A DNA stretch of 64,000 nucleotides, taken from NCBI RefSeq assembly GCF_055900595.2, contig NZ_CM148325.1. One strand, given 5' to 3'. Position 1 is the first letter of the stretch; every line of letters begins with the position of its first letter. This document shows positions 160-20,728 of the stretch, piece after piece. A program made the position numbers and the translations under genes. The notes beneath the pieces are model-generated. The model had not been told where the DNA came from and made no database searches. It saw only the letters and a list, made by a program, of their open reading frames with translations.

Positions 160-1035
160 ATGGACTTTTTTACGTTATTTTCGCCAGATGGGGCCATGCT
201 GGAAACAAACGTGGTATGTATCGTTATCGCGTTGATGTTTCTTTATACCTTTGTGGGGATATGCGCGGGATTTGGTGGCGGTTTAACCACCATGCCACTC
301 GTCACGTTAATGCTCCCCGTAAAAATGGCAACACCACTTTCGGTAATTGTCGGCACCGCAACCGCCTTGTACGCCACCTGGCTATCACGCAAAGAAACGG
401 ATTGGCGCTCGGCAATGGTGCTGATTATTTTCTCATTTTTGGGAATACCCGTCGGTTTATATGCGCTGTCGTATTTACCCGACCATTTTATGAAAGTGGG
501 CTTAGGTGGATTTCTTATCCTCTACTCCTTTTACAGCATGTTTATTCCTCGCTTGCCGATTTATGACCGTAACTGGATCGCCGCACCTATCGGCGCAGTA
601 GCTGGCGCATTAGGCGCGGCGTTCTCAACCAACGGGCCGCCGATGGTTATCTACGGGATGCTACGTAACTTAGGTCCGGCGGCATTTCGCGGCACACTGA
701 ACGCCTTCTTCACCGCAAACAACATCGCGGTGATCGGCGGGCTGGCGACCAGCGGAATTTTGACTGTTTCTATCTTTAAACTGGTGCTGTTTTGTATTCC
801 CACCATGATCCTCGGTTCACTGATTGGACAATATGTGCATAAACGCATTTCGGTCAAAGTGTTTCGTGTGATGGTCTTTTTATTGTTGATTGCCTCCGGT
901 TCTATGTTGATAAAAGGTGCGTTGGGAATTCCCGCTGCTGCCGCACTTCTGCCTCCGTTTACCTTGTTAGTTATACTGCAACTGGCATTTGGTAAAAAAG
1001 TGGCGGCAATCCGCCGGGCTGAAGAAAGTAAATAA
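160..1035 (+). CDS. TauE/SafE (DUF81, YfcA-like) family integral membrane anion permease, a putative sulfite/organosulfonate exporter
   Basis: 291-aa ORF with ATG at 160 preceded by AGGA about 8 nt upstream. The protein is almost entirely hydrophobic with multiple TM-length segments. Gly-rich motifs GICAGFGGGLTTMPLV (N-terminal half) and GAVAGALGAAFSTNGPPMV (C-terminal half) fit the two-repeat TauE architecture. Confidence 0.8.
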   Translation: MDFFTLFSPDGAMLETNVVCIVIALMFLYTFVGICAGFGGGLTTMPLVTLMLPVKMATPLSVIVGTATALYATWLSRKETDWRSAMVLIIFSFLGIPVGLYALSYLPDHFMKVGLGGFLILYSFYSMFIPRLPIYDRNWIAAPIGAVAGALGAAFSTNGPPMVIYGMLRNLGPAAFRGTLNAFFTANNIAVIGGLATSGILTVSIFKLVLFCIPTMILGSLIGQYVHKRISVKVFRVMVFLLLIASGSMLIKGALGIPAAAALLPPFTLLVILQLAFGKKVAAIRRAEESK

Positions 1036-7025: not shown

Positions 7026-7874
7026 ATGGAAAAGAAATTTTTTATGGATTGGGATAATGAAATCCCGCAAGAAGAGTTTATTAACAATATTTTAGCCGAT
7101 GAAGACCTGCCTAAAATCCGCTCTCTGATTATTGGTCGTTGGGGGGAGTGCTGGGATGAGGAAAGTTGCCAACCAATAATCGACATGTTTGTTGAACATG
7201 CCGAACGCTTTGCTCATCTCGAATCCCTATTTATCGGCGATATGGAAAGCGAAGAGTGTGAAATTTCGTGGATAAAACAAGGGGATTATTCTCGTCTGTA
7301 TGCTGCGCTGCCGAACCTCAAAAAGCTGACAATTAAAGGTACTCAGGGCCTGGAACTGGGAGAAATCGCCCATGACAAACTGGAGCATCTGGAAATTATC
7401 TCTGGCGGTACGCCGTGTGACGTGTTCGCCTCATTGCAAAATGCCCAACTGCCTGCGTTAAAAACACTTATCGTTTATATTGGCGTTGAGAATTATGGTT
7501 TTGATGCATCGCTGGATATCGTAATGAAGCTGGCGTCGAAATCCCTCTTCCCGAGCCTGACGCATCTTGGCCTGGTGAACAGCGAAGAGCAAAACGAAAT
7601 CGTCCGCCGCGTGCTGGAAAGCGACATTCTGCCGCAACTGGAAGTGCTGGCACTCTCCTGCGGTACGCTTACCGACGAAGGTGCAGAGCATCTTCTCAAA
7701 CATGCCGATCGCCTTAGCCATCTGAAACTGCTGGATTTGTACCATCATTACCTGACAGAAGAGATGCAGAAAAAACTGCAAAAAACACTGACATGTACTC
7801 TCGAATTATCAGAAGCGCTAACGCCTGAAGTCTATGATGACGAAATTTATATGCATGCGATGTATACCGAATAA
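7026..7874 (+). CDS. cytoplasmic leucine-rich-repeat protein (ribonuclease-inhibitor/RNI-like LRR) with an acidic Tyr-rich C-terminal tail; function unknown
   Basis: 282-aa ORF with AAGGAA RBS and no signal peptide. LRR units recur: LPKIRSLIIG, FAHLESLFIG, LPNLKKLTIKG, LEHLEIISG, LPALKTLIVYIG, FPSLTHLGLVN, LPQLEVLALSCGTLTDEGAEHLLKH and LSHLKLLDLYHHYLTEE. The tail is PEVYDDEIYMHAMYTE*. Confidence 0.8.
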   Translation: MEKKFFMDWDNEIPQEEFINNILADEDLPKIRSLIIGRWGECWDEESCQPIIDMFVEHAERFAHLESLFIGDMESEECEISWIKQGDYSRLYAALPNLKKLTIKGTQGLELGEIAHDKLEHLEIISGGTPCDVFASLQNAQLPALKTLIVYIGVENYGFDASLDIVMKLASKSLFPSLTHLGLVNSEEQNEIVRRVLESDILPQLEVLALSCGTLTDEGAEHLLKHADRLSHLKLLDLYHHYLTEEMQKKLQKTLTCTLELSEALTPEVYDDEIYMHAMYTE

Positions 7875-7886
7875 ATGACATTTATT

Positions 7887-7906
7887 GGGAGAGAGTCATC
7901 TCTCCC
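7887..7906 (+). terminator. perfect 8-bp stem-loop directly after the LRR gene; candidate partial terminator/attenuator
   Basis: GGGAGAGA (7887-7894), loop GTCA, TCTCTCCC (7899-7906), followed by the T-rich ATTATTTAT. It lies 13 nt after the LRR stop codon. Confidence 0.55.
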
Positions 7907-7934
7907 ATTATTTATCACAGAAAAGGAATTCTTC

Positions 7935-8921
7935 GTGATTACGCTAATTGGTCATCCTGAAAGCAAACGCACATTTTATTTTTGCCAGGCAGCGTCACGC
8001 TTACAGGAACATATCAACGTAGTGAGCTATGATCAAGCACTTACCCTGCTCTTAAATAAAGGCATGGTAAAAATCGATCCCCCCTTACATCAGGAAACAG
8101 ATATTCGCTTAATTAATACGGTTAGCCAAAACTATATTACTTTTTTACAAAAAATGGCTACCAGAAGGGAGATCCGTTTTATTAACTCACCAGAAGGTAT
8201 TATTCATCTTCTGGATAAACGCCACTGTAAGCAACGATTAGTCGAACACGCGATCCCGACACCGCCAATATTAGCGGATGATATCCGTAGCTACGATCAA
8301 CTGATCGCCTGTATGCGCAGCGAAAAGGTTTATCGCGTGTTTATTAAGCCGAATTTCGGATCAGGGGCCGCCGGGGTGCTGGCTTTGAGTCTACATCCCG
8401 GCGATAACCGTCAGGTGCTTTATTGCGCCATCCAGGTTGCAGGTGACAGGCTGGTGAACAGTAAACATATTATCCGCTATGAAAACAGCGGTGATATTAC
8501 GTTGATTGTGAATGCTATTTTACAACAAGACAATATTATCGAACGCTGGCTGGCAAAAGCCAGAGTGGGCAATAAAAGCTACGATTTACGCATCGTGTAC
8601 GTTAATGGTGAAATCGTCTGGCGGGTTGTCAGAACATCATCACAGCCGATCACCAATTTACATTTACAAAATGAAGCTATCCGTTTTGCCGATCTTAATT
8701 TACCCGTAGAAAAAGTAGCTGAAATTGATACGCTTTGTCTCAACGCCATGACCCTCTATCCGGACGTACACATTGCCGGGCTTGACGTATTACTCACGCA
8801 AAATTTAACACCCTATATTATCGAAATTAACGGCCAGGGCGATCTTATTTATCAGGACACCTGCGAAAAAAACAAAATTTATCAACGCCAGATTCAGGTA
8901 ATGAGAGAACATCATGTATAA
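7935..8921 (+). CDS. ATP-grasp fold ligase (RimK / glutathione-synthetase-like); substrate unknown
   Basis: The track ORF starts at ATG 7875, but that start would place the hairpin inside the CDS. GTG 7935 (VITLIGHPES...) has an AAAGGA RBS. ATP-grasp motifs are present: YRVFIKPNFGSGAAGVLAL, YDLRIVYVNGEIV and AGLDVLLTQNLTPYIIEINGQGD. The start codon is uncertain. Confidence 0.75.
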   Translation: MITLIGHPESKRTFYFCQAASRLQEHINVVSYDQALTLLLNKGMVKIDPPLHQETDIRLINTVSQNYITFLQKMATRREIRFINSPEGIIHLLDKRHCKQRLVEHAIPTPPILADDIRSYDQLIACMRSEKVYRVFIKPNFGSGAAGVLALSLHPGDNRQVLYCAIQVAGDRLVNSKHIIRYENSGDITLIVNAILQQDNIIERWLAKARVGNKSYDLRIVYVNGEIVWRVVRTSSQPITNLHLQNEAIRFADLNLPVEKVAEIDTLCLNAMTLYPDVHIAGLDVLLTQNLTPYIIEINGQGDLIYQDTCEKNKIYQRQIQVMREHHV

Positions 8922-9786
8922 CGTAACAGACGAAGTACCGGAAAATACCCGCACGGCAATCCATTCCTGCGATGGCGAAATCAATCTGAATGATTTAATT
9001 GCCAGGGAAGCCAATATCCTGTTTGTGGTGCTTGATTCCCTGCGTTTTGATATTGCGTTTCAGGAACAAGAGGCGGGAAATACACCAAATATTAACCGCT
9101 ATGGTCGCTGGATAAAGTGTGAAGCCGCTGGCAATTTTACCTGGCCTTCGCATCATTCGATGTTCTCTGGTTTTATGCCTAAGCCGCTGGAAGCTGCACC
9201 TGGTCATTCAATGCTCTTTTTCCCGAAAGATATTGGTTTAGGTCGTTTAGGGCCAAAAAATGCGTTCGCGTTCAGCGAAGAGACGTGGATTAAAGGGCTG
9301 GAAAACAAAGGTTACCGCACTATCTGCGTGGGTGGCGTCTCCTTTTTTAATAACCGCTCAGGGATGGGAAAAGTGTTCCCGGCGATGTTTAAAGAGAGTT
9401 ACTGGTATCCTAATTTCTCCTGCACGGTGAAAGAGAGCATGGATAATCAGCTCACCTTAATTAACAAAAAGGTGAACGCTGAACAGCCGCTGATGATGTA
9501 TATCAATATCGACACCATTCATTATCCGAATCATTTTTATATTGAAAATGCCAAACCTGGCGATACGGTAGAAACTCACGCCGCTGCCCTGCATTATATT
9601 GATGCCAGAATCGAAAAACTTTTCGATATCTTTCGGCAAACCGGGCGGGAGACGTTAGTTATTCTCTGTTCCGATCATGGCACCTGCTACGGGGAAGACG
9701 GTAAATATTTCCACAGTTTTAACCATCCGATTGTGAATACCGTACCCTATTTTCACTTTGTGTTAGACGGCAAAGACCATGAATAA
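8914..9786 (+). CDS. alkaline-phosphatase-superfamily hydrolase (sulfatase/NPP-like fold), soluble, with a predicted Thr nucleophile
   Basis: 290-aa ORF whose ATG overlaps the upstream stop by 8 nt. Motifs are the N-terminal metal-ligand motif VVLDSLRFD, the nucleophile motif F-T-W-P-S-H-H-S-M-F-S-G (T-x-P-x-H, at 9139 onward) and the C-terminal CSDHGTCYGEDG (D-H metal ligands). Confidence 0.75.
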   Translation: MYNVTDEVPENTRTAIHSCDGEINLNDLIAREANILFVVLDSLRFDIAFQEQEAGNTPNINRYGRWIKCEAAGNFTWPSHHSMFSGFMPKPLEAAPGHSMLFFPKDIGLGRLGPKNAFAFSEETWIKGLENKGYRTICVGGVSFFNNRSGMGKVFPAMFKESYWYPNFSCTVKESMDNQLTLINKKVNAEQPLMMYINIDTIHYPNHFYIENAKPGDTVETHAAALHYIDARIEKLFDIFRQTGRETLVILCSDHGTCYGEDGKYFHSFNHPIVNTVPYFHFVLDGKDHE

Positions 9787-11017
9787 TGAATCGATTTATC
9801 AGCAATATATGTACAGTTACCCGCATAAGACCGCTTATCGGGAATTAAACAATATTGCTTTTGCGGATGTGAAATCGCGTATTTACGAGCATAAAACACA
9901 TCTCTATATTCATATGCCTTTTTGCCAGAGCCGCTGCGGGTTTTGTAATCTCTTTACCTGCACGGGGGCAGACAATGCCTTTATCGACAACTACATAGAA
10001 GCAATTATTATCCAGGCCCGGCAAATGCAACTTGCGCCTGTAGACTGGGCCAGTTTTACCATTGGCGGCGGTACGCCACTACTGCTTAATACCGGGCAAC
10101 TGTCACGGTTGTTTCGCGGGGTGTTTGACGAATTACAGGTCGATGCGCAGATTTTTAAGGCAATTGAAACATCGCCTTCCGATACCACCGCCGAAAAGGT
10201 CGCGTTATTGCGCCAGCTTGCGGTAAACCGCGTCAGTATTGGCATTCAGAGTTTTAACGATCTGGAACTTGCCACATTACACCGCCGCCATAGTGCGGAA
10301 AATGCCCATCGGGCGCTGGAGCTACTGCGCAGGGGTAATTTCCCGATAATCAATATTGATATTATTTACGGTATTCCTGGTCAAACAGCCGCAAGTTTAA
10401 TGGCGTCGCTTAATCAAGCATTAGATTATCAGCCTGACGAACTGTTTCTGTACCCGCTATATAACATGCCGCGTCAGCCGGATATGTATAGCCTCTATAT
10501 TGAAGCCCGCGATCGCTTATTGCATGAAGGTTATACGCAAACGTCAATGCGCCGTTTTGTGCGGGTGAATAATGATTCGGCGGCTGAAAGTTGTGGCTTT
10601 GAAAATTCGCTGGCGCTTGGCGCGGGCGGGCGCAGTTATCTTGGCAATTTACATTACTGCACGCCGTGGTCGCAAAACCAGCCCGCATCGCGGCAAATTG
10701 TCACGGATTTTATCGCCCGGCCAGATAAGACCCAGATTCACCACGGCTATGTACTTTCACAAGCAGAAATGAAGCGGCGTTTTATTATCAAGAATCTCTT
10801 TTTCTATAAGGGGCTTTCGTTACGGGATTATCAGCACCAGTTCTTCTCTGAGGTATTAAGCGATTTTCCCCTGCTGGGCGATTTCATCAAACAAGATTAC
10901 TGCCACCAGCAGGATAATCGTATTCTGCTCACCGCGCAGGGTTTAGCGCTTTCGGACCAGCTTGGCCCGCTGTTTATCTCCCCGGAAGTTCGCAGGCTGG
11001 AGACGCATAAACGATGA
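9779..11017 (+). CDS. HemN/HemW-like (class C-type) radical SAM enzyme
   Basis: 412-aa ORF whose ATG overlaps the upstream stop by 8 nt. CX3CX2C motif FCQSRCGFC lies at 9923-9946. It aligns by eye with the authentic HemN in this window: YIHMPFCQSRCGFC vs YVHIPFCHKLCYFC, TIGGGTPLLL vs HWGGGTPTYL, NRVSIGIQSFND vs NRLSMGVQDFNK, NIDIIYGIPGQT vs NIDLIYGLPKQT. Confidence 0.85.
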   Translation: MNNESIYQQYMYSYPHKTAYRELNNIAFADVKSRIYEHKTHLYIHMPFCQSRCGFCNLFTCTGADNAFIDNYIEAIIIQARQMQLAPVDWASFTIGGGTPLLLNTGQLSRLFRGVFDELQVDAQIFKAIETSPSDTTAEKVALLRQLAVNRVSIGIQSFNDLELATLHRRHSAENAHRALELLRRGNFPIINIDIIYGIPGQTAASLMASLNQALDYQPDELFLYPLYNMPRQPDMYSLYIEARDRLLHEGYTQTSMRRFVRVNNDSAAESCGFENSLALGAGGRSYLGNLHYCTPWSQNQPASRQIVTDFIARPDKTQIHHGYVLSQAEMKRRFIIKNLFFYKGLSLRDYQHQFFSEVLSDFPLLGDFIKQDYCHQQDNRILLTAQGLALSDQLGPLFISPEVRRLETHKR

Positions 11018-11871
11018 CGCTCAAGCAGATCCAGACGCTGATTTATCGCGGCGAGATAAAGTCGTGTAATTATCGCTGTGGTTATTGCCCTTTTCATAAA
11101 CAAGACCGCAATGATAAACAGCAGGATGAAGTGGCATTATGGCGCATGGTTGAACATTTACCGGCGCAGGGTTCACCATTAAATGTATTTATTACGCCCT
11201 ACGGCGAAGCATTGCGTTATCGTTATTATATGGCGGCGATGGCGGAAATCAGCCGCTATTCCCATGTGCAGGCGGTGGGTATTCAGACCAACGCCTCTTT
11301 TAATTTATCCACCTTAGTCGCGACTTTTCAGCACTCTCAGGGCGATTTAGCAAAGCTGCGGCTGTGGTGTTCGTTTCATCCTTCCCAGGCAAGTAAAGAA
11401 GTTTTCCTTAAACAGTTACTGGCAATTAAGGACACGGGGATTACCTGTTCTGTGGGGGCCGTCGCCAGCGTAGCCGACTATGACGAATTACAGTGGTTAC
11501 GCGCGCATCTTCCTCCCGATATCTATTTCTGGCTAAACGCCAATGAGCGCGATAAAAGGCCCACCAGCGACGAAAGAAATAGCCAGTTTCAGTTGCTGGA
11601 CCCGCTTTATTATCTGGAAACCAGCCTCTGGCCTGCCAATGTCGAGTTTTGTCTGGGCGGCAAAAAGAGCGTGTTTATGAATGCTGATGGCGATCTCTTC
11701 GCCTGTAATATCAGCAAAATTAAGATTGGCAATTTATATCAACAGCAACTTTCATCTCCGTCTTGTATGTCCAGGCACTGTCACTGTTATCTGGCTTATC
11801 ACCTGCGTGAGGATATTCCGGCCCTCTCACAATTTGATGCTGAACGCTGCTTTCGGATCTTCTCGTTATGA
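11014..11871 (+). CDS. small radical SAM enzyme with a C-terminal Cys-rich (SPASM/twitch-like) region
   Basis: 285-aa ORF with an ATGA overlap with the upstream gene. CX3CX2C motif SCNYRCGYC lies at 11065-11088, and a YGEAL (GGE-like) motif is present. The C-terminus carries CLGGKKSVFMNADGDLFAC then CMSRHCHC (from 11650). Confidence 0.8.
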   Translation: MTLKQIQTLIYRGEIKSCNYRCGYCPFHKQDRNDKQQDEVALWRMVEHLPAQGSPLNVFITPYGEALRYRYYMAAMAEISRYSHVQAVGIQTNASFNLSTLVATFQHSQGDLAKLRLWCSFHPSQASKEVFLKQLLAIKDTGITCSVGAVASVADYDELQWLRAHLPPDIYFWLNANERDKRPTSDERNSQFQLLDPLYYLETSLWPANVEFCLGGKKSVFMNADGDLFACNISKIKIGNLYQQQLSSPSCMSRHCHCYLAYHLREDIPALSQFDAERCFRIFSL

Positions 11872-12563
11872 TCTGGCGGTTAATCGCGCTCGATTTAGAC
11901 GGCACATTGCTGAACAGCAAGAAGATGATTTCCCCTGCGTCTGTTTCGGCACTGCAAAGCGCACAACAGGCAGGTGTGAAAATTATCCTCGCCACCGGAC
12001 GTTCGCACAGCGAAGCCCTGCCTTATTACCAACAATTGCAGTTAACCGAGCCGATGATTTGCTGTAACGGCAGCTATCTTTATCATCCGCGCCAGCGGCA
12101 AATATTGCGTCCGCTGGCGCTTGATATCCACAAGGTGGAAAGGCTACGACTCTGGTTTTCACAACAAATATTGCAGCCAAATATTTATACGTACGATGAT
12201 TTTGTTTTGCAGATTAGCCTGATACACCGCAAGGCTTCGTTATTGCGCCAGACAGAGGAATTTGCCCGACAAGAATTATCGCTGGCCTGTAGCTGGTCCT
12301 GGCATCATCAACTGGATATTACACAGGTGGGGTGTGAGAAAGGCAAAAGTCTGGCCTGGTATGCCCGACAGCAAAATATCGTGCTGGATGAAATCATCGC
12401 CTTTGGCGATAACGATAATGATGCGGGGATGCTGCGGATGGTAGGCAAAGGGATTGCGATGGGCAATGGCAGTTCGCTGGCAAAAGTCAGTGCTGACCGC
12501 GTTATTGGTCACAACAACACAGATGCTATTGCGGATTTTCTTGATGCGCAGGGTTTCAGATGA
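11868..12563 (+). CDS. HAD-superfamily Cof-type (IIB) phosphatase
   Basis: 231-aa ORF with an ATGA overlap with the upstream gene. It has motif I LDLDGTLL, motif II ILATGRS and motif IV AFGDNDNDAGML. Confidence 0.85.
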   Translation: MIWRLIALDLDGTLLNSKKMISPASVSALQSAQQAGVKIILATGRSHSEALPYYQQLQLTEPMICCNGSYLYHPRQRQILRPLALDIHKVERLRLWFSQQILQPNIYTYDDFVLQISLIHRKASLLRQTEEFARQELSLACSWSWHHQLDITQVGCEKGKSLAWYARQQNIVLDEIIAFGDNDNDAGMLRMVGKGIAMGNGSSLAKVSADRVIGHNNTDAIADFLDAQGFR

Positions 12564-12600: not shown

Positions 12601-12605
12601 AAAAG

Positions 12606-12637
12606 CAAAAAACCTGCCATCGCTGGCAGGTTTTTTA
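12606..12637. terminator. bidirectional rho-independent terminator shared by the HAD gene (+) and typA (-)
   Basis: CCTGCCA (12613-12619) pairs with TGGCAGG (12624-12630). It is flanked by an A-run upstream and T6 downstream, so it reads as a terminator on both strands. Confidence 0.8.
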
Positions 12638-12653
12638 TGACTAAAAAACGAAA

Positions 12654-14477
12654 TTAATCGTCTTTCGGTGCGCGGTTGGCGCGACGACGATCGTTTTCCG
12701 TCAGGTGACGTTTACGAATACGGATAGAGGTCGGAGTCACTTCTACCAGTTCGTCATCATCGATGAACTCCAGCGCTTGTTCCAGCGTCATGCGGATAGG
12801 CGGAACCAGAACAACGGCTTCGTCAGTACCGGAAGCACGCATGTTGGTCAGTTTCTTACCGGTCAGACAGTTTACAGTCAGGTCGTTAGAACGGCTGTGA
12901 ATACCGATAATCTGACCTTCGTAAACTTCTGCACCGTGACCGAGGAACAGCTTACCGCGATCCTGCAGACCGAACAGCGCGAACGCGACCGCTTTACCCT
13001 GACCGTTAGAGATCAGTACGCCGTTCTGACGCTGACCCACTTCACCCGGACGCACGTCGTCGTAGTGGCTGAAGGTGGAGTACAACAGACCCGTACCAGA
13101 GGTCATGGTCATGAACTCAGAACGGAAGCCAATCAGACCACGGCTTGGGATCACGTAGTCGAGACGTACGCGGCCTTTACCGTCTGGATTCATGTTTTTC
13201 AGGTCGCCTTTACGTTCGCCCAGCGCCTGCATCACAGAACCCTGATGCTGTTCTTCAACGTCCAGCGTCACGTTTTCATACGGCTCTTGTTTACGACCGT
13301 CGATTTCACGGAAGATAACTTTCGGACGGGATACCGCCAGTTCGAAACCTTCACGACGCATGTTTTCGATCAGAACAGACAGGTGCAGTTCGCCACGACC
13401 AGAAACGCGGAACGCATCGGCGTCTTCAGTTTCTTCTACGCGCAGCGCAACGTTGTGTACCAGTTCTTTGTTCAGACGATCCAGAATCTGACGAGACGTT
13501 ACGAACTTACCTTCTTTACCGCAGAACGGCGAGGTGTTAACGCAGAAGAACATAGAAACGGTCGGCTCATCAACGGAGAGTGCCGGCAGCGCTTCAACGT
13601 TTTGCGTGTCGCAAACGGTGTCAGAAATGTTCAGTTCGCCCAGGCCCGTGATCGCCACGATATCGCCAGCTTCCGCCAGATCGGTTTCGATACGTTCCAG
13701 ACCGAGGTGGCCCAGCACTTTACCGACTTTCGCGTTGCGGGTTTTGCCTTCGCTATCGATGATAGTAACTTGCTGGTTCGGCTTCACTTTACCGCGCTTG
13801 ATGCGGCCAATGCCGATAACGCCAACATAGCTGTTGTAATCGAGCTGAGAAATCTGCATCTGGAACGGACCGTCAAGGTCAACGTCCGGCGCAGGAACGT
13901 GGTCAACAATTGCCTGATACAGCGGGGTCATGTCTTCCGCCATATCTTCGTGGTCCAGACCGGCGATACCGTTCAGCGCAGAAGCGTAAACGATCGGGAA
14001 GTCCAGCTGCTCGTCGGTCGCGTCGAGGTTAACGAACAGGTCGAATACCTGATCCACAACCCAGTCAGGACGCGCGCCAGGGCGGTCAACTTTGTTGATA
14101 ACAACAATTGGCTTCAGGCCGTAAGCAAACGCTTTTTTGGTTACGAAGCGCGTTTGCGGCATCGGGCCGTCAAATGCGTCAACCACCAGCAGCACTGAGT
14201 CTACCATGGACATTACACGTTCAACTTCACCACCGAAGTCGGCGTGCCCCGGGGTATCAACGATGTTGATACGGTAATCATTCCATTTGATAGCGGTGTT
14301 TTTCGCGAGGATGGTAATCCCACGCTCTTTCTCCAAATCGTTGGAGTCCATCACGCGCTCTTGGGTTTCGGCACGAGAGTCGAACGTACCGGATTGTTGG
14401 AGCAGCTTGTCTACCAGGGTGGTTTTACCATGGTCTACGTGCGCGATGATGGCGATATTACGCAATTTTTCGATCAC
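12654..14477 (-). CDS. typA: ribosome-dependent translational GTPase BipA/TypA
   Basis: 607-aa ORF starting [26 protein letters not shown] with G-domain motifs [13 protein letters not shown] and NKVD. It is identical in style to K-12 BipA. Confidence 0.98.
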
Positions 14478-19354: not shown

Positions 19355-20728
19355 TTAAATCACCCGTGAGAACTGCTGCATCCGCGCTTTCTGGCGCAGA
19401 TAGGTATCAAAGCACATGCAAATGTTGCGGATCAGCAGGCGACCTTTCGCCGTTACCTGAATCCCCTTCTCATCCACATCCACCAGCCCATCTTTTGCTA
19501 ACGGGGCGAGCAGCTTGAGATCTTCTGCAAAGTAGTCAGCGAAGAGCAAATCCCACTGTTGCTCAATAGGGGCGTAATCCAGACGGAAGTTGCAGATGAG
19601 CGACTTAATCACATCGCGGCGAATACAGTCATCACGCGTTAGCGCAATACCACGCCACAGCGCATTGCCTTGTTCATCCACTTGCTGATAGTACTGCTTC
19701 AACTCTTTCTGGTTCTGCGCGTAGCAGTCGCCAATCATGCTGATGGCGGAAACGCCCATCCCCAGCAGATCGGTATCGCCCTGAGTGGTGTAGCCCTGGA
19801 AGTTACGATGCAGCACGCCTTCACGCTGGGCCACCGCCAGCTCGTCATCCGGACGGGCAAAGTGATCCATACCGATAAACTGATAGCCCGATTGTGTCAG
19901 GAAGGCGATGGTTTCCTGCAGGATATCGAGTTTTTGCTGCGGACTCGGCAGGTCAGCATCTTTGATTTTACGCTGAGCAGCAAAAATGGTCGGCAAATGC
20001 GCGTAGTTAAAGACACTCAGGCGATCGGGGTTAAGTTCCGCCACGCGTTTCAGGGTAAAGGCGAAACTCTCCGGCGTTTGTTTCGGCAGGCCGTAAATCA
20101 GGTCGATGTTGGTGGAGGTAAAGCCAATCTCACGCGCATGGTTAAGCAGTGCAAAGATGAACTCTTCATCCTGCTCGCGGTTAACCAGACGTTGCACTTC
20201 TTTGTTGAAGTCCTGCACGCCCATGCTCAGGCGATTAAAGCCTTCGGCGCGTAAATGATCGAGTACATCCAGTTCGATTTCCCGCGGATCGACTTCGATC
20301 GAGATCTCCGCATCGGCATTGAACTGGAAGTTTTCGCGCAGCAGCTTCATCAGACGGCTGATTTGCGCTTTATTCAGATACGTCGGCGTTCCTCCGCCCC
20401 AGTGCAATTGGCTGACGTGACGCCCGGCGAACAGCGGTGCACGATGGACGATTTCTTGCTCCAGCGCGTCCAGATACTGATCGGCCTTGTGCTGCTGGCG
20501 AGTAACAATCTTATTGCAACCGCAGAAGTAACAAAGCTTATGGCAGAACGGGATATGTACGTAGAGAGATAATGGACGCTCAGGATAGCGCGCCACGGCT
20601 TGTAAAAACGCCTGTTCGCCGAAGTCTTCTGAAAACTCCAGCGCGGTTGGGTACGAGGTGTATCGTGGCCCGGAATAGTTATATTTCTGGATCAGGGCCA
20701 GATCCCAGTCGATTTGCTGTACAGACAT
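19355..20728 (-). CDS. hemN: oxygen-independent coproporphyrinogen III dehydrogenase (radical SAM)
   Basis: The start is set at ATG 20728 (MSVQQIDWDLALIQKYNYSGPRY) with a GGAG 5 nt upstream, giving 457 aa; the track adds 2 codons from a GTG. It has the CX3CX2C motif FCHKLCYFC. Confidence 0.97.
   Translation of the reverse strand: MSVQQIDWDLALIQKYNYSGPRYTSYPTALEFSEDFGEQAFLQAVARYPERPLSLYVHIPFCHKLCYFCGCNKIVTRQQHKADQYLDALEQEIVHRAPLFAGRHVSQLHWGGGTPTYLNKAQISRLMKLLRENFQFNADAEISIEVDPREIELDVLDHLRAEGFNRLSMGVQDFNKEVQRLVNREQDEEFIFALLNHAREIGFTSTNIDLIYGLPKQTPESFAFTLKRVAELNPDRLSVFNYAHLPTIFAAQRKIKDADLPSPQQKLDILQETIAFLTQSGYQFIGMDHFARPDDELAVAQREGVLHRNFQGYTTQGDTDLLGMGVSAISMIGDCYAQNQKELKQYYQQVDEQGNALWRGIALTRDDCIRRDVIKSLICNFRLDYAPIEQQWDLLFADYFAEDLKLLAPLAKDGLVDVDEKGIQVTAKGRLLIRNICMCFDTYLRQKARMQQFSRVI

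What the first reader, a model, noticed from the sequence alone, without database searches (positions are those of the whole stretch)
9779..11017. Second HemN-family radical SAM gene in the same window as the housekeeping hemN
The 412-aa protein aligns block by block with authentic HemN (19355-20728): the FCxxxCxFC cluster motif, GGGTP, NR-x-S-x-G-x-Q-x-F and NID-x-IYG-x-P-x-QT. It is shorter and diverges outside these blocks. The HemN-like family includes coproporphyrinogen dehydrogenase, heme chaperones (HemW), anaerobic heme-degrading ChuW-type enzymes and class C radical SAM methyltransferases used in natural-product and RiPP biosynthesis. Embedded in an operon with an ATP-grasp ligase and a second radical SAM, a methyltransferase or modification role seems more plausible than tetrapyrrole synthesis.
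Basis: partly seen in the sequence, partly recalled or inferred. Interest (0 to 1): 0.5.

Follow-up and report, generated by a model that had tools for sequence, protein, structure and literature searches.

The report
HemN-like radical enzyme, STM4012 cassette
The second "HemN" is real but is not a heme enzyme: it belongs to the named, functionally unstudied STM4012 family and sits in a horizontally acquired six-gene operon that most likely chemically modifies the conserved glutamate-ending tail of a co-encoded leucine-rich-repeat protein.

Summary
ORF 9779-11017 (412 aa) aligns over its full length with the window's HemN (25% identity, E 2e-32), and all four quoted motifs are present.

It is not HemN, HemW or ChuW. 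It passes only the NCBIfam "STM4012 family radical SAM" model (492 bits, cut-off 380). It lacks HemN's fourth Cys and RNFQGY segment, and HemW's HNxxYW motif. In a tree it separates from HemN, HemW, ChuW and NocN with bootstrap 100.

RefSeq already gives this name to identical E. coli sequences. I found no functional study.

The window is E. coli. A lower-GC operon (STM4015-4014-4013-4012-4011 plus a Cof-type HAD) replaces yihL-yihM-yihN in 157 of 5426 complete genomes. All five core genes are present in 72 of 80 loci drawn from several phyla.

The new lead is STM4015, a leucine-rich-repeat protein:
- It always ends in Glu (115/115 ORFs; 141/147 cluster representatives).
- It occurs in 2-5 tandem copies in many actinomycete loci.
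- It lies next to an ATP-grasp ligase distantly related to RimK and LysX.

My best reading is a protein-tail modification system in which STM4012 supplies two-SAM radical chemistry. That substrate assignment is an inference (about 0.5).

The parts
7026..7874 (+). STM4015-family leucine-rich-repeat protein (282 aa); proposed substrate or carrier of the cassette
   Evidence: NF038076 scores 323 bits against a cut-off of 275. The AF2 model has pLDDT 92 and is an LRR solenoid. The best fold match is PDB 2RA8, a B. fragilis protein of unknown function (44% identity, TM 0.85).
7827..7871 (+). C-terminal tail EVYDDEIYMHAMYTE: an acidic linker, aromatic residues and an invariant terminal Glu
   Evidence: 115/115 STM4015 ORFs in 75 loci end in Glu, and position -3 is V or L in 112/115. 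Of 147 50%-identity cluster representatives, 141 end in Glu; the 6 exceptions are fragments or matches that stop short of the profile end. The native C-terminus of 2RA8 is ...YPMITE.
7875..8921 (+). STM4014-family ATP-grasp ligase (RefSeq starts it at 7935)
   Evidence: NF038074 scores 337 bits against a cut-off of 175. Distant hits go to MptN, the RimK family, LysX and CofF. Pfam matches three ATP-grasp families. A family profile finds RimK as the best PDB match, but only at E 6e-4.
8914..9786 (+). STM4013/SEN3800 alkaline-phosphatase-superfamily (sulfatase-fold) hydrolase with a Thr at the nucleophile position
   Evidence: NF038075 scores 351 bits; Pfam Sulfatase 2.8e-16. D41, T76, D254 and H255 are invariant across the family. 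T76 is read as occupying the place of the sulfatase Cys/Ser by comparing its segment (FTWPSH) with the sulfatase C-x-P-S-R signature; no alignment was printed that shows a sulfatase nucleophile opposite T76.
9779..11017 (+). The finding: STM4012-family HemN-like radical SAM protein (412 aa)
   Evidence: NF006067 scores 491.8 bits against a cut-off of 380. The cluster motif is C49-x3-C53-x2-C56. Y43, E130, R169 and D194 align with residues of the two SAM sites of HemN and NocN. Family-specific motifs are YxYxYPHKTAYR, CNLF and SMR[RM]F.
11014..11871 (+). STM4011-family small radical SAM protein with a Cys-rich C-terminal region
   Evidence: NF038073 scores 299.5 bits against a cut-off of 200. 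C18, C22 and C25 are invariant, as are five C-terminal Cys (C213, C231, C251, C256, C258). It lies immediately after STM4012 in 79/80 loci.
11868..12563 (+). Cof-type HAD-IIB phosphatase, the sixth gene of the operon in the Enterobacteria/Firmicutes branch
   Evidence: Pfam Hydrolase_3 2.9e-53. In 21 Firmicutes loci this domain is fused to the C-terminus of STM4011. A profile built from the fused domains hits this protein at E 7.5e-22.
12606..12637 (.). Palindromic stem-loop with U-tracts on both sides, lying between the operon end and the convergent typA
   Evidence: Terminator scan: 14-bp stem. It overlaps a near-threshold STnc370 sRNA match on the typA strand.
19355..20728 (-). Housekeeping hemN, included as comparator only; not part of the cassette
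   Evidence: TIGR00538 scores 804.6 bits against a cut-off of 325. It scores only 208 bits on the STM4012 model, whose cut-off is 380.

Best explanation
SHOWN. The ORF is an intact member of the STM4012 family, a separate clade of HemN-like radical SAM enzymes. It is not a second coproporphyrinogen dehydrogenase, a HemW heme chaperone or a ChuW. It keeps the CxxxCxxC cluster site and the residues that bind both SAM molecules in HemN and NocN. It sits in a tightly packed, horizontally acquired operon (STM4015, STM4014, STM4013, STM4012, STM4011, HAD). That operon replaces yihL-yihM-yihN between ompL and typA in about 3% of complete E. coli genomes. The five-gene core is conserved across several phyla.

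INFERRED. The cassette is a protein-tail modification system. The substrate or carrier is the C-terminal tail of the LRR protein STM4015, which always ends in Glu. The proposed steps are:
1. The RimK/LysX-like ATP-grasp STM4014 activates a carboxylate of that terminal Glu as an acyl phosphate and ligates a partner to it.
2. STM4012 cleaves SAM-1 to a 5'-deoxyadenosyl radical. This radical takes an H from the methyl of SAM-2 to give the SAM-methylene radical that HemN and class C methylases share.
3. That radical acts on the tail. It either transfers a C1 unit to it (my estimate about 35%) or abstracts an H for HemN-style oxidative decarboxylation of the propionate-like Glu side chain (about 25%). 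Other outcomes make up the rest.
4. STM4011, the small partner radical SAM with an auxiliary Cys cluster, performs a second radical step.
5. STM4013 (Thr-nucleophile phosphoryl-transfer fold) and the HAD phosphatase process a phosphoester intermediate.

Confidence by part: family identity and a non-heme role about 0.9; STM4015 tail as target about 0.5; exact chemistry unknown.
For: Identity
- NF006067 scores 492 bits against a cut-off of 380, while the HemN, HemW, ChuW and HemZ models all fail their cut-offs.
- The split of 18 family members from HemN, ChuW, HemW and NocN has bootstrap 100.
- The fold matches HemN 1OLT at TM 0.75.
- Y43, E130, R169 and D194 are invariant and align with HemN Y56/E145/R184/D209 and NocN Y34/E132/R171/D196.

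Context
- All five genes are present in 72/80 loci from Lachnospiraceae, Clostridium, actinomycetes, Planctomycetota, Lysobacteraceae, Deinococcus, Desulfobacterales and Bacteroides.
- The same five genes stay together even where their order is permuted.
- In the window the genes overlap or abut.

Substrate
- 115/115 STM4015 ORFs and 141/147 cluster representatives end in Glu.
- The linker before the tail is variable while the last residues are conserved.
- 27 of 75 loci carry 2-5 tandem STM4015 copies with a single set of enzymes.
- Extra domains (WGR, TPR, Sel1, additional LRRs, KOW) are always fused at the N-terminus, leaving the tail free.
- The closest characterised relatives of the ATP-grasp are ligases that act on terminal Glu carboxylates: RimK, LysX, CofF and MptN.

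Horizontal acquisition
- GC is 0.42-0.43 in the cassette against about 0.51 in the flanks.
- K-12 has yihL-yihM-yihN at this site.
- The cassette is present in 157/5426 genomes.
- The E. coli protein groups with Firmicutes members at bootstrap 100.
Against: - No modification has been observed, and I found no published functional data.
- The tail is modelled with fairly high confidence (pLDDT about 86 for residues 271-280). Its conservation could therefore partly reflect a structural LRR cap.
- The cassette has no protease and no recognisable leader-binding (RRE) domain.
- Two loci lack the ATP-grasp within 19 kb (L031, L044). Loci L007, L011 and L034 show the STM4012-STM4011 pair without STM4015 nearby.
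- Similarity of STM4014 to RimK and LysX is distant: 38 bits against a cut-off of 143, and PDB E 6e-4.
- The roles given to STM4013 and the HAD are guesses. Two phosphoester enzymes would fit a small phosphorylated metabolite equally well.
Confidence: 0.6

Rival explanations
1. The cassette makes or modifies a small phosphorylated metabolite, such as a cofactor or natural product. [quoted passage not shown] STM4015 is only a regulatory or scaffolding LRR protein.
For: Two phosphoester-type enzymes are present: STM4013 with an invariant Thr at the nucleophile position, and a HAD that is fused to STM4011 in 21 loci. The nearest ATP-grasp relatives include small-molecule ligases (CofF, MptN). All characterised class C enzymes act on small molecules or peptides (PMC10114718). 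The cassette has no protease.
Against: This reading does not explain why STM4015 always ends in Glu, why fusions are only N-terminal, or why STM4015 alone is multiplied 2-5 fold beside one set of enzymes. No transporter, regulator or other biosynthetic gene is conserved with the cassette across phyla.
Confidence: 0.2
2. STM4015 is a LysW-like carrier protein. An amino compound is attached to its terminal Glu, remodelled by the radical SAM and phosphatase enzymes while tethered, and then released.
For: LysW also ends in Glu and is loaded by the ATP-grasp LysX (my own knowledge of the family). LysX is among the distant hits of STM4014. The tail sits on a variable acidic linker.
Against: The cassette has no release amidase or peptidase. 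STM4015 is a 280-aa LRR solenoid that is often fused to interaction domains, unlike small dedicated carriers. Multiple paralogous carriers per cluster would have no obvious purpose.
Confidence: 0.12
3. It is a spare heme-pathway protein: an alternative oxygen-independent coproporphyrinogen dehydrogenase (HemZ-like) or a heme chaperone or heme-degrading enzyme.
For: It has the full-length HemN fold and retains a homologue of the N-terminal trip-wire motif that HemW and NocN lack. Many database entries label homologues as coproporphyrinogen III oxidase.
Against: All four heme-related equivalog models fail their cut-offs. The fourth Cys, RNFQGY and HNxxYW are absent. It forms a separate clade. 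No heme gene is linked in any of the 80 loci. The genome already carries hemN in this window.
Confidence: 0.04
4. The cassette is an anti-phage or conflict system in which the LRR (and WGR) protein is a sensor.
For: The locus is a variable, horizontally acquired island present in about 3% of E. coli. LRR and WGR domains occur in immune sensors.
Against: There is no PADLOC match apart from one weak generic radical SAM hit. No nuclease, protease or pore effector is present. The cassette is also stably chromosomal in many free-living actinomycetes.
Confidence: 0.04

Closest known systems
HemN (CpdH), oxygen-independent coproporphyrinogen III dehydrogenase, PDB 1OLT
   Same: Full-length fold (TM 0.75). 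CxxxCxxC cluster, GGGTP, and the residues of both SAM sites (Y56, E145, R184, D209). A homologous N-terminal Tyr/Pro-rich motif. A HemN_C-type C-terminal domain.
   Different: Only 25-26% identity. The fourth Cys (C71) is Leu. The RNFQGY segment (F310, Q311) is deleted. GMDHF is replaced by SMR[RM]F. It fails TIGR00538 (124 vs 325). It has no heme context and a different conserved operon.
Class C radical SAM methylases (NosN/NocN, PDB 9P2U; TbtI, ChuW, C10P)
   Same: Two-SAM architecture. The Tyr that stacks on SAM-II and the Asp that bridges both SAMs are conserved (PMC12871812). Like these enzymes, it is embedded in a dedicated modification gene cluster.
   Different: The NocN match covers only the radical SAM domain. 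NocN Y96, S225 and the catalytic Y276 are not conserved; they align with T94, L224 and R259. It does not group with NocN or ChuW. No methyl transfer has been shown.
RimK-S6, LysX-LysW, and Pup-PafA: ligases that act on a protein's C-terminal Glu
   Same: The partner protein has an invariant C-terminal Glu on an acidic tail and is encoded next to an ATP-dependent carboxylate-amine ligase. The best solved-structure match for that ligase, a weak one (E 6e-4), is RimK.
   Different: The ligase similarity is distant and below all family cut-offs. The partner is a 280-aa LRR protein rather than S6, LysW or Pup. None of these systems contains radical SAM enzymes.
Radical SAM maturation of C-terminal residues (MftA-MftC mycofactocin, PqqA-PqqE)
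   Same: A radical SAM protein with extra C-terminal Cys (STM4011). A conserved Tyr/Glu-containing C-terminal motif. Multiplied substrate genes beside a single set of enzymes.
   Different: The substrate is a folded protein rather than a short peptide. No PqqD/RRE partner and no protease. The SPASM match is sub-threshold (18.9 vs 21.5). A HemN-like second enzyme has no counterpart in those systems.

Membership tests
STM4012 family radical SAM protein (NCBIfam NF006067) | Score at or above the curated cut-off of the equivalog model | tested here: met
   491.8 bits against a cut-off of 380, aligned 7-409 of 412 aa. RefSeq gives this name to the identical sequence.
STM4012 family radical SAM protein (NCBIfam NF006067) | Occurs with STM4011, STM4013, STM4014 and STM4015 | tested here: met
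   All five are adjacent in the window. All five are present in 72/80 loci across phyla, and STM4011 is adjacent in 79/80.
HemN / coproporphyrinogen dehydrogenase (TIGR00538) | Equivalog model cut-off | tested here: not met
   124.4 bits against a cut-off of 324.95, with only residues 12-231 matched.
HemN / coproporphyrinogen dehydrogenase (TIGR00538) | Fourth Cys of CxxxCxxCxC (C71) | tested here: not met
   The sequence is FCNLF; Leu58 is invariant in the family.
HemN / coproporphyrinogen dehydrogenase (TIGR00538) | RNFQGY segment carrying F310 and Q311 | tested here: not met
   The segment is deleted and replaced by SCGFEN / CCQxDG.
HemN / coproporphyrinogen dehydrogenase (TIGR00538) | Residues of the two SAM sites (Y56, E145, R184, D209) | tested here: met
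   Y43, E130, R169 and D194 are all invariant.
HemN / coproporphyrinogen dehydrogenase (TIGR00538) | Complements anaerobic heme synthesis | not testable with these tools
   Requires a hemN hemF mutant.
HemW heme chaperone (TIGR00539) | Equivalog model cut-off | tested here: not met
   137 bits against a cut-off of 205.4. 23% identity to E. coli HemW.
HemW heme chaperone (TIGR00539) | HNxxYW motif (PMC10114718) | tested here: not met
   E. coli HemW has HNLNYW at position 250. STM4012 has no such motif.
ChuW/HutW anaerobic heme degradation (TIGR04107) | Equivalog model cut-off and a heme-uptake operon context | tested here: not met
   124.1 bits against a cut-off of 400. 20% identity to ChuW of strain Sakai, which lies in the chu locus.
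Class C radical SAM methylases (NosN/NocN type) | SAM-II site: stacking Tyr and bridging Asp | tested here: met
   Y43 aligns with NocN Y34, and D194 with NocN D196.
Class C radical SAM methylases (NosN/NocN type) | NocN-specific SAM-II and catalytic residues (Y96, S225, Y276) and clade membership | tested here: not met
   The aligned residues are T94, L224 and R259. NocN groups with HemW, outside the STM4012 clade.
Class C radical SAM methylases (NosN/NocN type) | SAM-derived C1 transfer with SAH formation | not testable with these tools
   Requires an in vitro assay.
RimK/LysX-type C-terminal Glu ligase system (assessed for the cassette) | Partner protein with a conserved C-terminal Glu | tested here: met
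   115/115 ORFs and 141/147 cluster representatives end in Glu.
RimK/LysX-type C-terminal Glu ligase system (assessed for the cassette) | Ligase passes the RimK family or LysX models | tested here: not met
   RimK family 37.6 bits against 143.4; LysX 31.1 against 275.6. The PDB match to RimK is only E 6e-4.
Radical SAM/SPASM peptide maturase system (assessed for STM4011) | SPASM or twitch auxiliary-cluster domain | tested here: inconclusive
   Pfam SPASM scores 18.9 bits against a cut-off of 21.5, yet five C-terminal Cys are invariant.

The most novel reading that the evidence does not exclude
The STM4011-4015 cassette is an undescribed post-translational system that rebuilds the C-terminal glutamate tail of a family of leucine-rich-repeat proteins. 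It would use an ATP-grasp ligase, a HemN-like two-SAM enzyme, a second radical SAM enzyme and phosphoester enzymes. It is widespread (about 950 protein clusters of the LRR partner at E <= 1e-30) and occurs in Salmonella, some E. coli, gut Clostridia and actinomycetes. STM4012 would then be the first HemN-like enzyme known to act on a folded protein.
Probability: 0.4. Interest if true: 0.75.

Novelty: new variant of a known kind. Interest (0 to 1): 0.5.

Why it matters
HemN-like proteins are routinely mislabelled as coproporphyrinogen oxidases, and each characterised clade has so far revealed new radical chemistry. This clade is already catalogued by NCBI but has no known function, although it occurs in Salmonella, some E. 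coli and many gut and soil bacteria. The invariant terminal Glu of the co-encoded LRR protein gives a concrete and cheap experiment: measure the mass of the STM4015 C-terminal peptide with and without the cassette. A positive result would define a new protein modification and a new substrate class for two-SAM radical enzymes. For genome annotation the practical message is simpler: this gene should not be counted as a second hemN.

Tried and rejected
- Literature searches for STM4011-4015, SEN3800, the family names, DUF6745, 2RA8, and HemN plus ATP-grasp plus LRR found only table entries: a weak sigma-54 ChIP site, a small expression change and a selection scan. None was a functional study.
- PADLOC gave no defence-system match.
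- Rfam found no riboswitch or leader associated with the cassette in the window or in seven Firmicutes loci.
- The promoter scan was no better than shuffled sequence (12 found vs 12.0 expected).
- No small ORF in the 212-bp gap upstream of STM4015 looks like a precursor peptide.
- A single-sequence PDB search with the ATP-grasp returned only spurious endonuclease VIII hits. A family profile was needed to see RimK, and even then only weakly.
- A single-sequence search with the window's HAD missed the fused HAD domains of Firmicutes. A profile built from the fused domains recovered the link.
- Neighbour clustering in high-GC loci was polluted by shadow ORFs. After filtering, only actinomycete-specific neighbours remained: DUF6745 and a 118-aa protein.
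- I considered that STM4011 might be an anSME-like maturase for the sulfatase-fold STM4013. I set this aside because the nucleophile position is an invariant Thr and the anSME match is negligible (E 0.008 over the cluster motif only).
Full report
**1. The observation**

ORF 9779-11017 (+) encodes an intact 412-aa protein. Against the window's genuine HemN (19355-20728, minus strand; TIGR00538 804.6 bits) BLASTP gives 25% identity over 429 columns, E 2e-32, from the N-terminal region to the C-terminal domain. Pfam reports Radical_SAM at 5.9e-20 and a weak HemN_C match. An AlphaFold2 model (pLDDT 88) has HemN 1OLT as its top structural match, with TM 0.75 over 411 columns.

**2. Where the window comes from**

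The region is 100% identical to E. coli chromosomes such as NZ_CP098223. The gene order is yihQ, yihP, yihO, ompL, six genes, typA (convergent), glnA, glnL, glnG, hemN. E. coli K-12 carries yihL-yihM-yihN between ompL and bipA/typA instead. The six-gene block is present in 157 of 5426 complete E. coli genomes. Its GC content is 0.42-0.43 over 6-10 kb, against about 0.51 in the flanks. This is a horizontally acquired replacement island.

**3. What the gene is**

NCBIfam assigns each of the five core genes to a curated but function-less family:
- STM4015 (323 bits)
- STM4014, ATP-grasp (337 bits)
- STM4013/SEN3800, sulfatase-fold hydrolase (351 bits)
- STM4012 radical SAM (491.8 bits, cut-off 380), which is the finding
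- STM4011 radical SAM (299.5 bits)

RefSeq already uses these names on the identical E. coli sequence. The finding fails every heme-related equivalog model: HemW 137 vs 205, HemN 124 vs 325, ChuW/HutW 124 vs 400, HemZ 118 vs 321. Conversely, the real HemN fails the STM4012 model at 208 vs 380.

**4. Placement among characterised relatives**

I fetched E. coli HemW and ChuW, and took the NocN radical SAM domain from the PDB alignment.
- On 235 core columns, a neighbour-joining tree separates 18 STM4012-family proteins from HemN, ChuW, HemW and NocN with bootstrap 100.
- The E. coli protein groups with Firmicutes and Bacteroides members, also at bootstrap 100.
- Identities to HemN, HemW, ChuW and NocN are 26, 23, 20 and 29%.
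- A family profile matches HemN over its full length (E 1.5e-49) but matches NocN only over the radical SAM domain (E 7e-33).

This tree has few reference sequences and uses a simple method. It shows separation from these four proteins, not the position of the family within the whole superfamily.

**5. Residue tests**

Cluster and SAM sites:
- The cluster ligands C49, C53 and C56 are invariant.
- The fourth Cys of HemN is an invariant Leu (CNLF).
- The residues shared by the two SAM sites of HemN and NocN are invariant (PMC12871812): the Tyr that stacks on SAM-II (Y43), E130, R169, and the Asp that bridges both SAMs (D194). The two-SAM apparatus is therefore probably intact.

Residues of the characterised relatives that are missing:
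- The NocN-specific residues Y96, S225 and the catalytic Y276 align with T94, L224 and R259.
- HemN's RNFQGY segment and HemW's HNxxYW motif are absent.

Motifs specific to the STM4012 family:
- The family has its own motifs: an N-terminal YxYxYPHKTAYR, SMR[RM]F and a conserved Cys (C272).
- The N-terminal motif is homologous to the HemN trip-wire and is absent from HemW and NocN.
- The extra Arg residues suggest an anionic substrate; that is an inference.

**6. The cassette is the unit**

A scan of one genome per species found at least 598 loci encoding relatives, and 80 were kept.
- All five genes are present in 72 of the 80 loci.
- Three of the eight exceptions are cut off by contig ends.
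- STM4011 directly follows STM4012 in 79 of 80 loci.
- The taxa include Lachnospiraceae, Clostridium, many actinomycete genera, Planctomycetota, Lysobacteraceae, Deinococcus, Desulfobacterales and Bacteroides.
- In one Firmicutes genome the order is permuted (4012, 4011, 4015, 4014, 4013) but the set is unchanged.

In 21 Firmicutes loci STM4011 carries a C-terminal Cof-type HAD domain. A profile of that domain hits the window's separate downstream HAD (11868-12563) at E 7.5e-22. The HAD therefore belongs to the system in this branch. Actinomycetes lack it.

**7. The partner proteins**

- STM4013 has invariant D41, T76, D254 and H255. I read T76 as standing at the position of the sulfatase Cys/Ser, by comparing its segment (FTWPSH) with the sulfatase C-x-P-S-R signature rather than from an alignment that shows the two residues opposite each other. 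On that reading it resembles phosphoryl-transfer members of the alkaline phosphatase superfamily rather than a true sulfatase.
- STM4011 has the CxxxCxxC motif plus five invariant C-terminal Cys, consistent with an auxiliary cluster. The SPASM match is sub-threshold.
- STM4014 is an ATP-grasp enzyme. Its only characterised relatives, all distant, are MptN, the RimK family, LysX and CofF. These ligases act on terminal glutamyl carboxylates. RimK is the best PDB match, at only E 6e-4.

**8. The lead: the STM4015 tail**

STM4015 is a confident LRR solenoid (pLDDT 92). Its closest structure is 2RA8, a B. fragilis structural-genomics protein of unknown function (44% identity, TM 0.85).
- Every one of 115 STM4015 ORFs in 75 loci ends in Glu. 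Position -3 is V or L in 112, and an aromatic residue lies 6-8 positions from the end.
- The tail is preceded by a variable acidic linker.
- In an independent search of 1.84 billion cluster representatives, 141 of the 147 newly returned representatives among the top 150 hits end in Glu. The six exceptions are fragments or matches that stop before the profile end. About 951 clusters match at E <= 1e-30.
- The native C-terminus of 2RA8 is ...YPMITE.
- 27 loci, all actinomycete, carry 2-5 tandem STM4015 paralogues, each with the tail, beside a single set of enzymes.
- Where STM4015 is fused to other modules (WGR, TPR, Sel1, additional LRRs, KOW), the fusion is always N-terminal.

A multiplied gene carrying an invariant terminal residue next to a carboxylate ligase is the pattern of a substrate or carrier, not of an enzyme.

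**9. Proposed mechanism**

Shown: family identity, retained two-SAM residues, cassette conservation and the invariant tail.

Inferred: STM4014 activates a carboxylate of the terminal Glu and ligates a partner. STM4012 generates the SAM-methylene radical common to HemN and class C methylases (PMC10114718; PMC12871812) and uses it on the tail. The outcome could be C1 transfer. It could instead be HemN-style H abstraction and oxidative decarboxylation, since a Glu side chain is chemically a propionate substituent like HemN's substrate. STM4011 adds a second radical step. STM4013 and the HAD handle a phosphoester. I put the tail-substrate model at about 0.5 and regard the specific chemistry as open.

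Arguments against the model:
- There is no direct evidence of modification.
- The tail is modelled as partly ordered, so some of its conservation may be structural.
- The cassette has no protease or RRE domain.
- A few loci lack the ATP-grasp or STM4015 within the DNA that was fetched.

**10. Rival explanations**

- A small phosphorylated metabolite pathway, with STM4015 as an accessory protein (0.2).
- A LysW-like carrier with product release (0.12).
- A spare heme enzyme (0.04). The model scores, motifs, tree and context all argue against this.
- A defence system (0.04). PADLOC found no match.

**11. Novelty and verdict**

The gene and its cassette are already catalogued and named, so the bare finding is not a discovery. 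A second HemN-like paralogue is also common in bacteria. However, I found no functional study, and a review notes that unknown HemN-like subclades remain to be characterised (PMC10114718). The family differs from every characterised HemN-like clade in motifs, context and probable substrate. I rate it a new variant of a known kind, with interest 0.5.

Noticed in passing
window 160-1035 (+): A 291-aa TauE/SafE sulfite-exporter family gene (Pfam 2.4e-35) lies directly upstream of yihQ, where K-12 has yihR. The sulfoquinovose locus of this strain therefore also differs from K-12.
   Followed up: partly
L001 4027-4874 (= window 7026-7874): In strain Z0117EC0005 the otherwise identical STM4015 gene is annotated as frameshifted (a 1-nt length difference), whereas the window's copy is intact. 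The proposed substrate gene can decay while the enzyme genes stay intact.
   Followed up: no
window 12601-12669 (-): A match to the enterobacterial sRNA STnc370 falls just below the gathering score (53.2 vs 54 bits). It overlaps the palindromic terminator between the HAD gene and typA, so it is probably a typA 3'-end RNA.
   Followed up: no
window 9163-9180 (-): The intragenic sigma-54 binding site reported inside Salmonella STM4013 (PMC3844500) has a counterpart here with 3 mismatches (AGGCATAAAACCAGAGAA). Chance expectation is 0.07 matches per window.
   Followed up: partly
L028 11141-12262 (-), L068 11297-12397 (-), and 31 other actinomycete loci: A DUF6745 protein of about 370 aa and a protein of about 118 aa with no Pfam match flank the cassette in 33 and 28 actinomycete loci respectively, mostly on the opposite strand just downstream of it. 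They may be lineage-specific partners.
   Followed up: partly
L085 4076-10136: A Firmicutes genome has the cassette in permuted order (4012, 4011-HAD, WGR-4015, 4014, 4013), with an N-terminal WGR domain on STM4015. PDB 2RA8 from B. fragilis likewise carries about 80 extra N-terminal residues, which were not annotated here.
   Followed up: partly
L031 and L044: Two loci (Sinosporangium album and a Planctomycetota MAG) have STM4015 directly followed by STM4013, with no ATP-grasp gene anywhere in the fetched 14-19 kb.
   Followed up: no
L045 7498-8160: A gammaproteobacterial cassette has a HAD-IA family hydrolase inserted between STM4014 and STM4013. This is a different HAD subfamily from the Cof-type one of E. 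coli and Firmicutes, which suggests repeated recruitment of a phosphatase.
   Followed up: no
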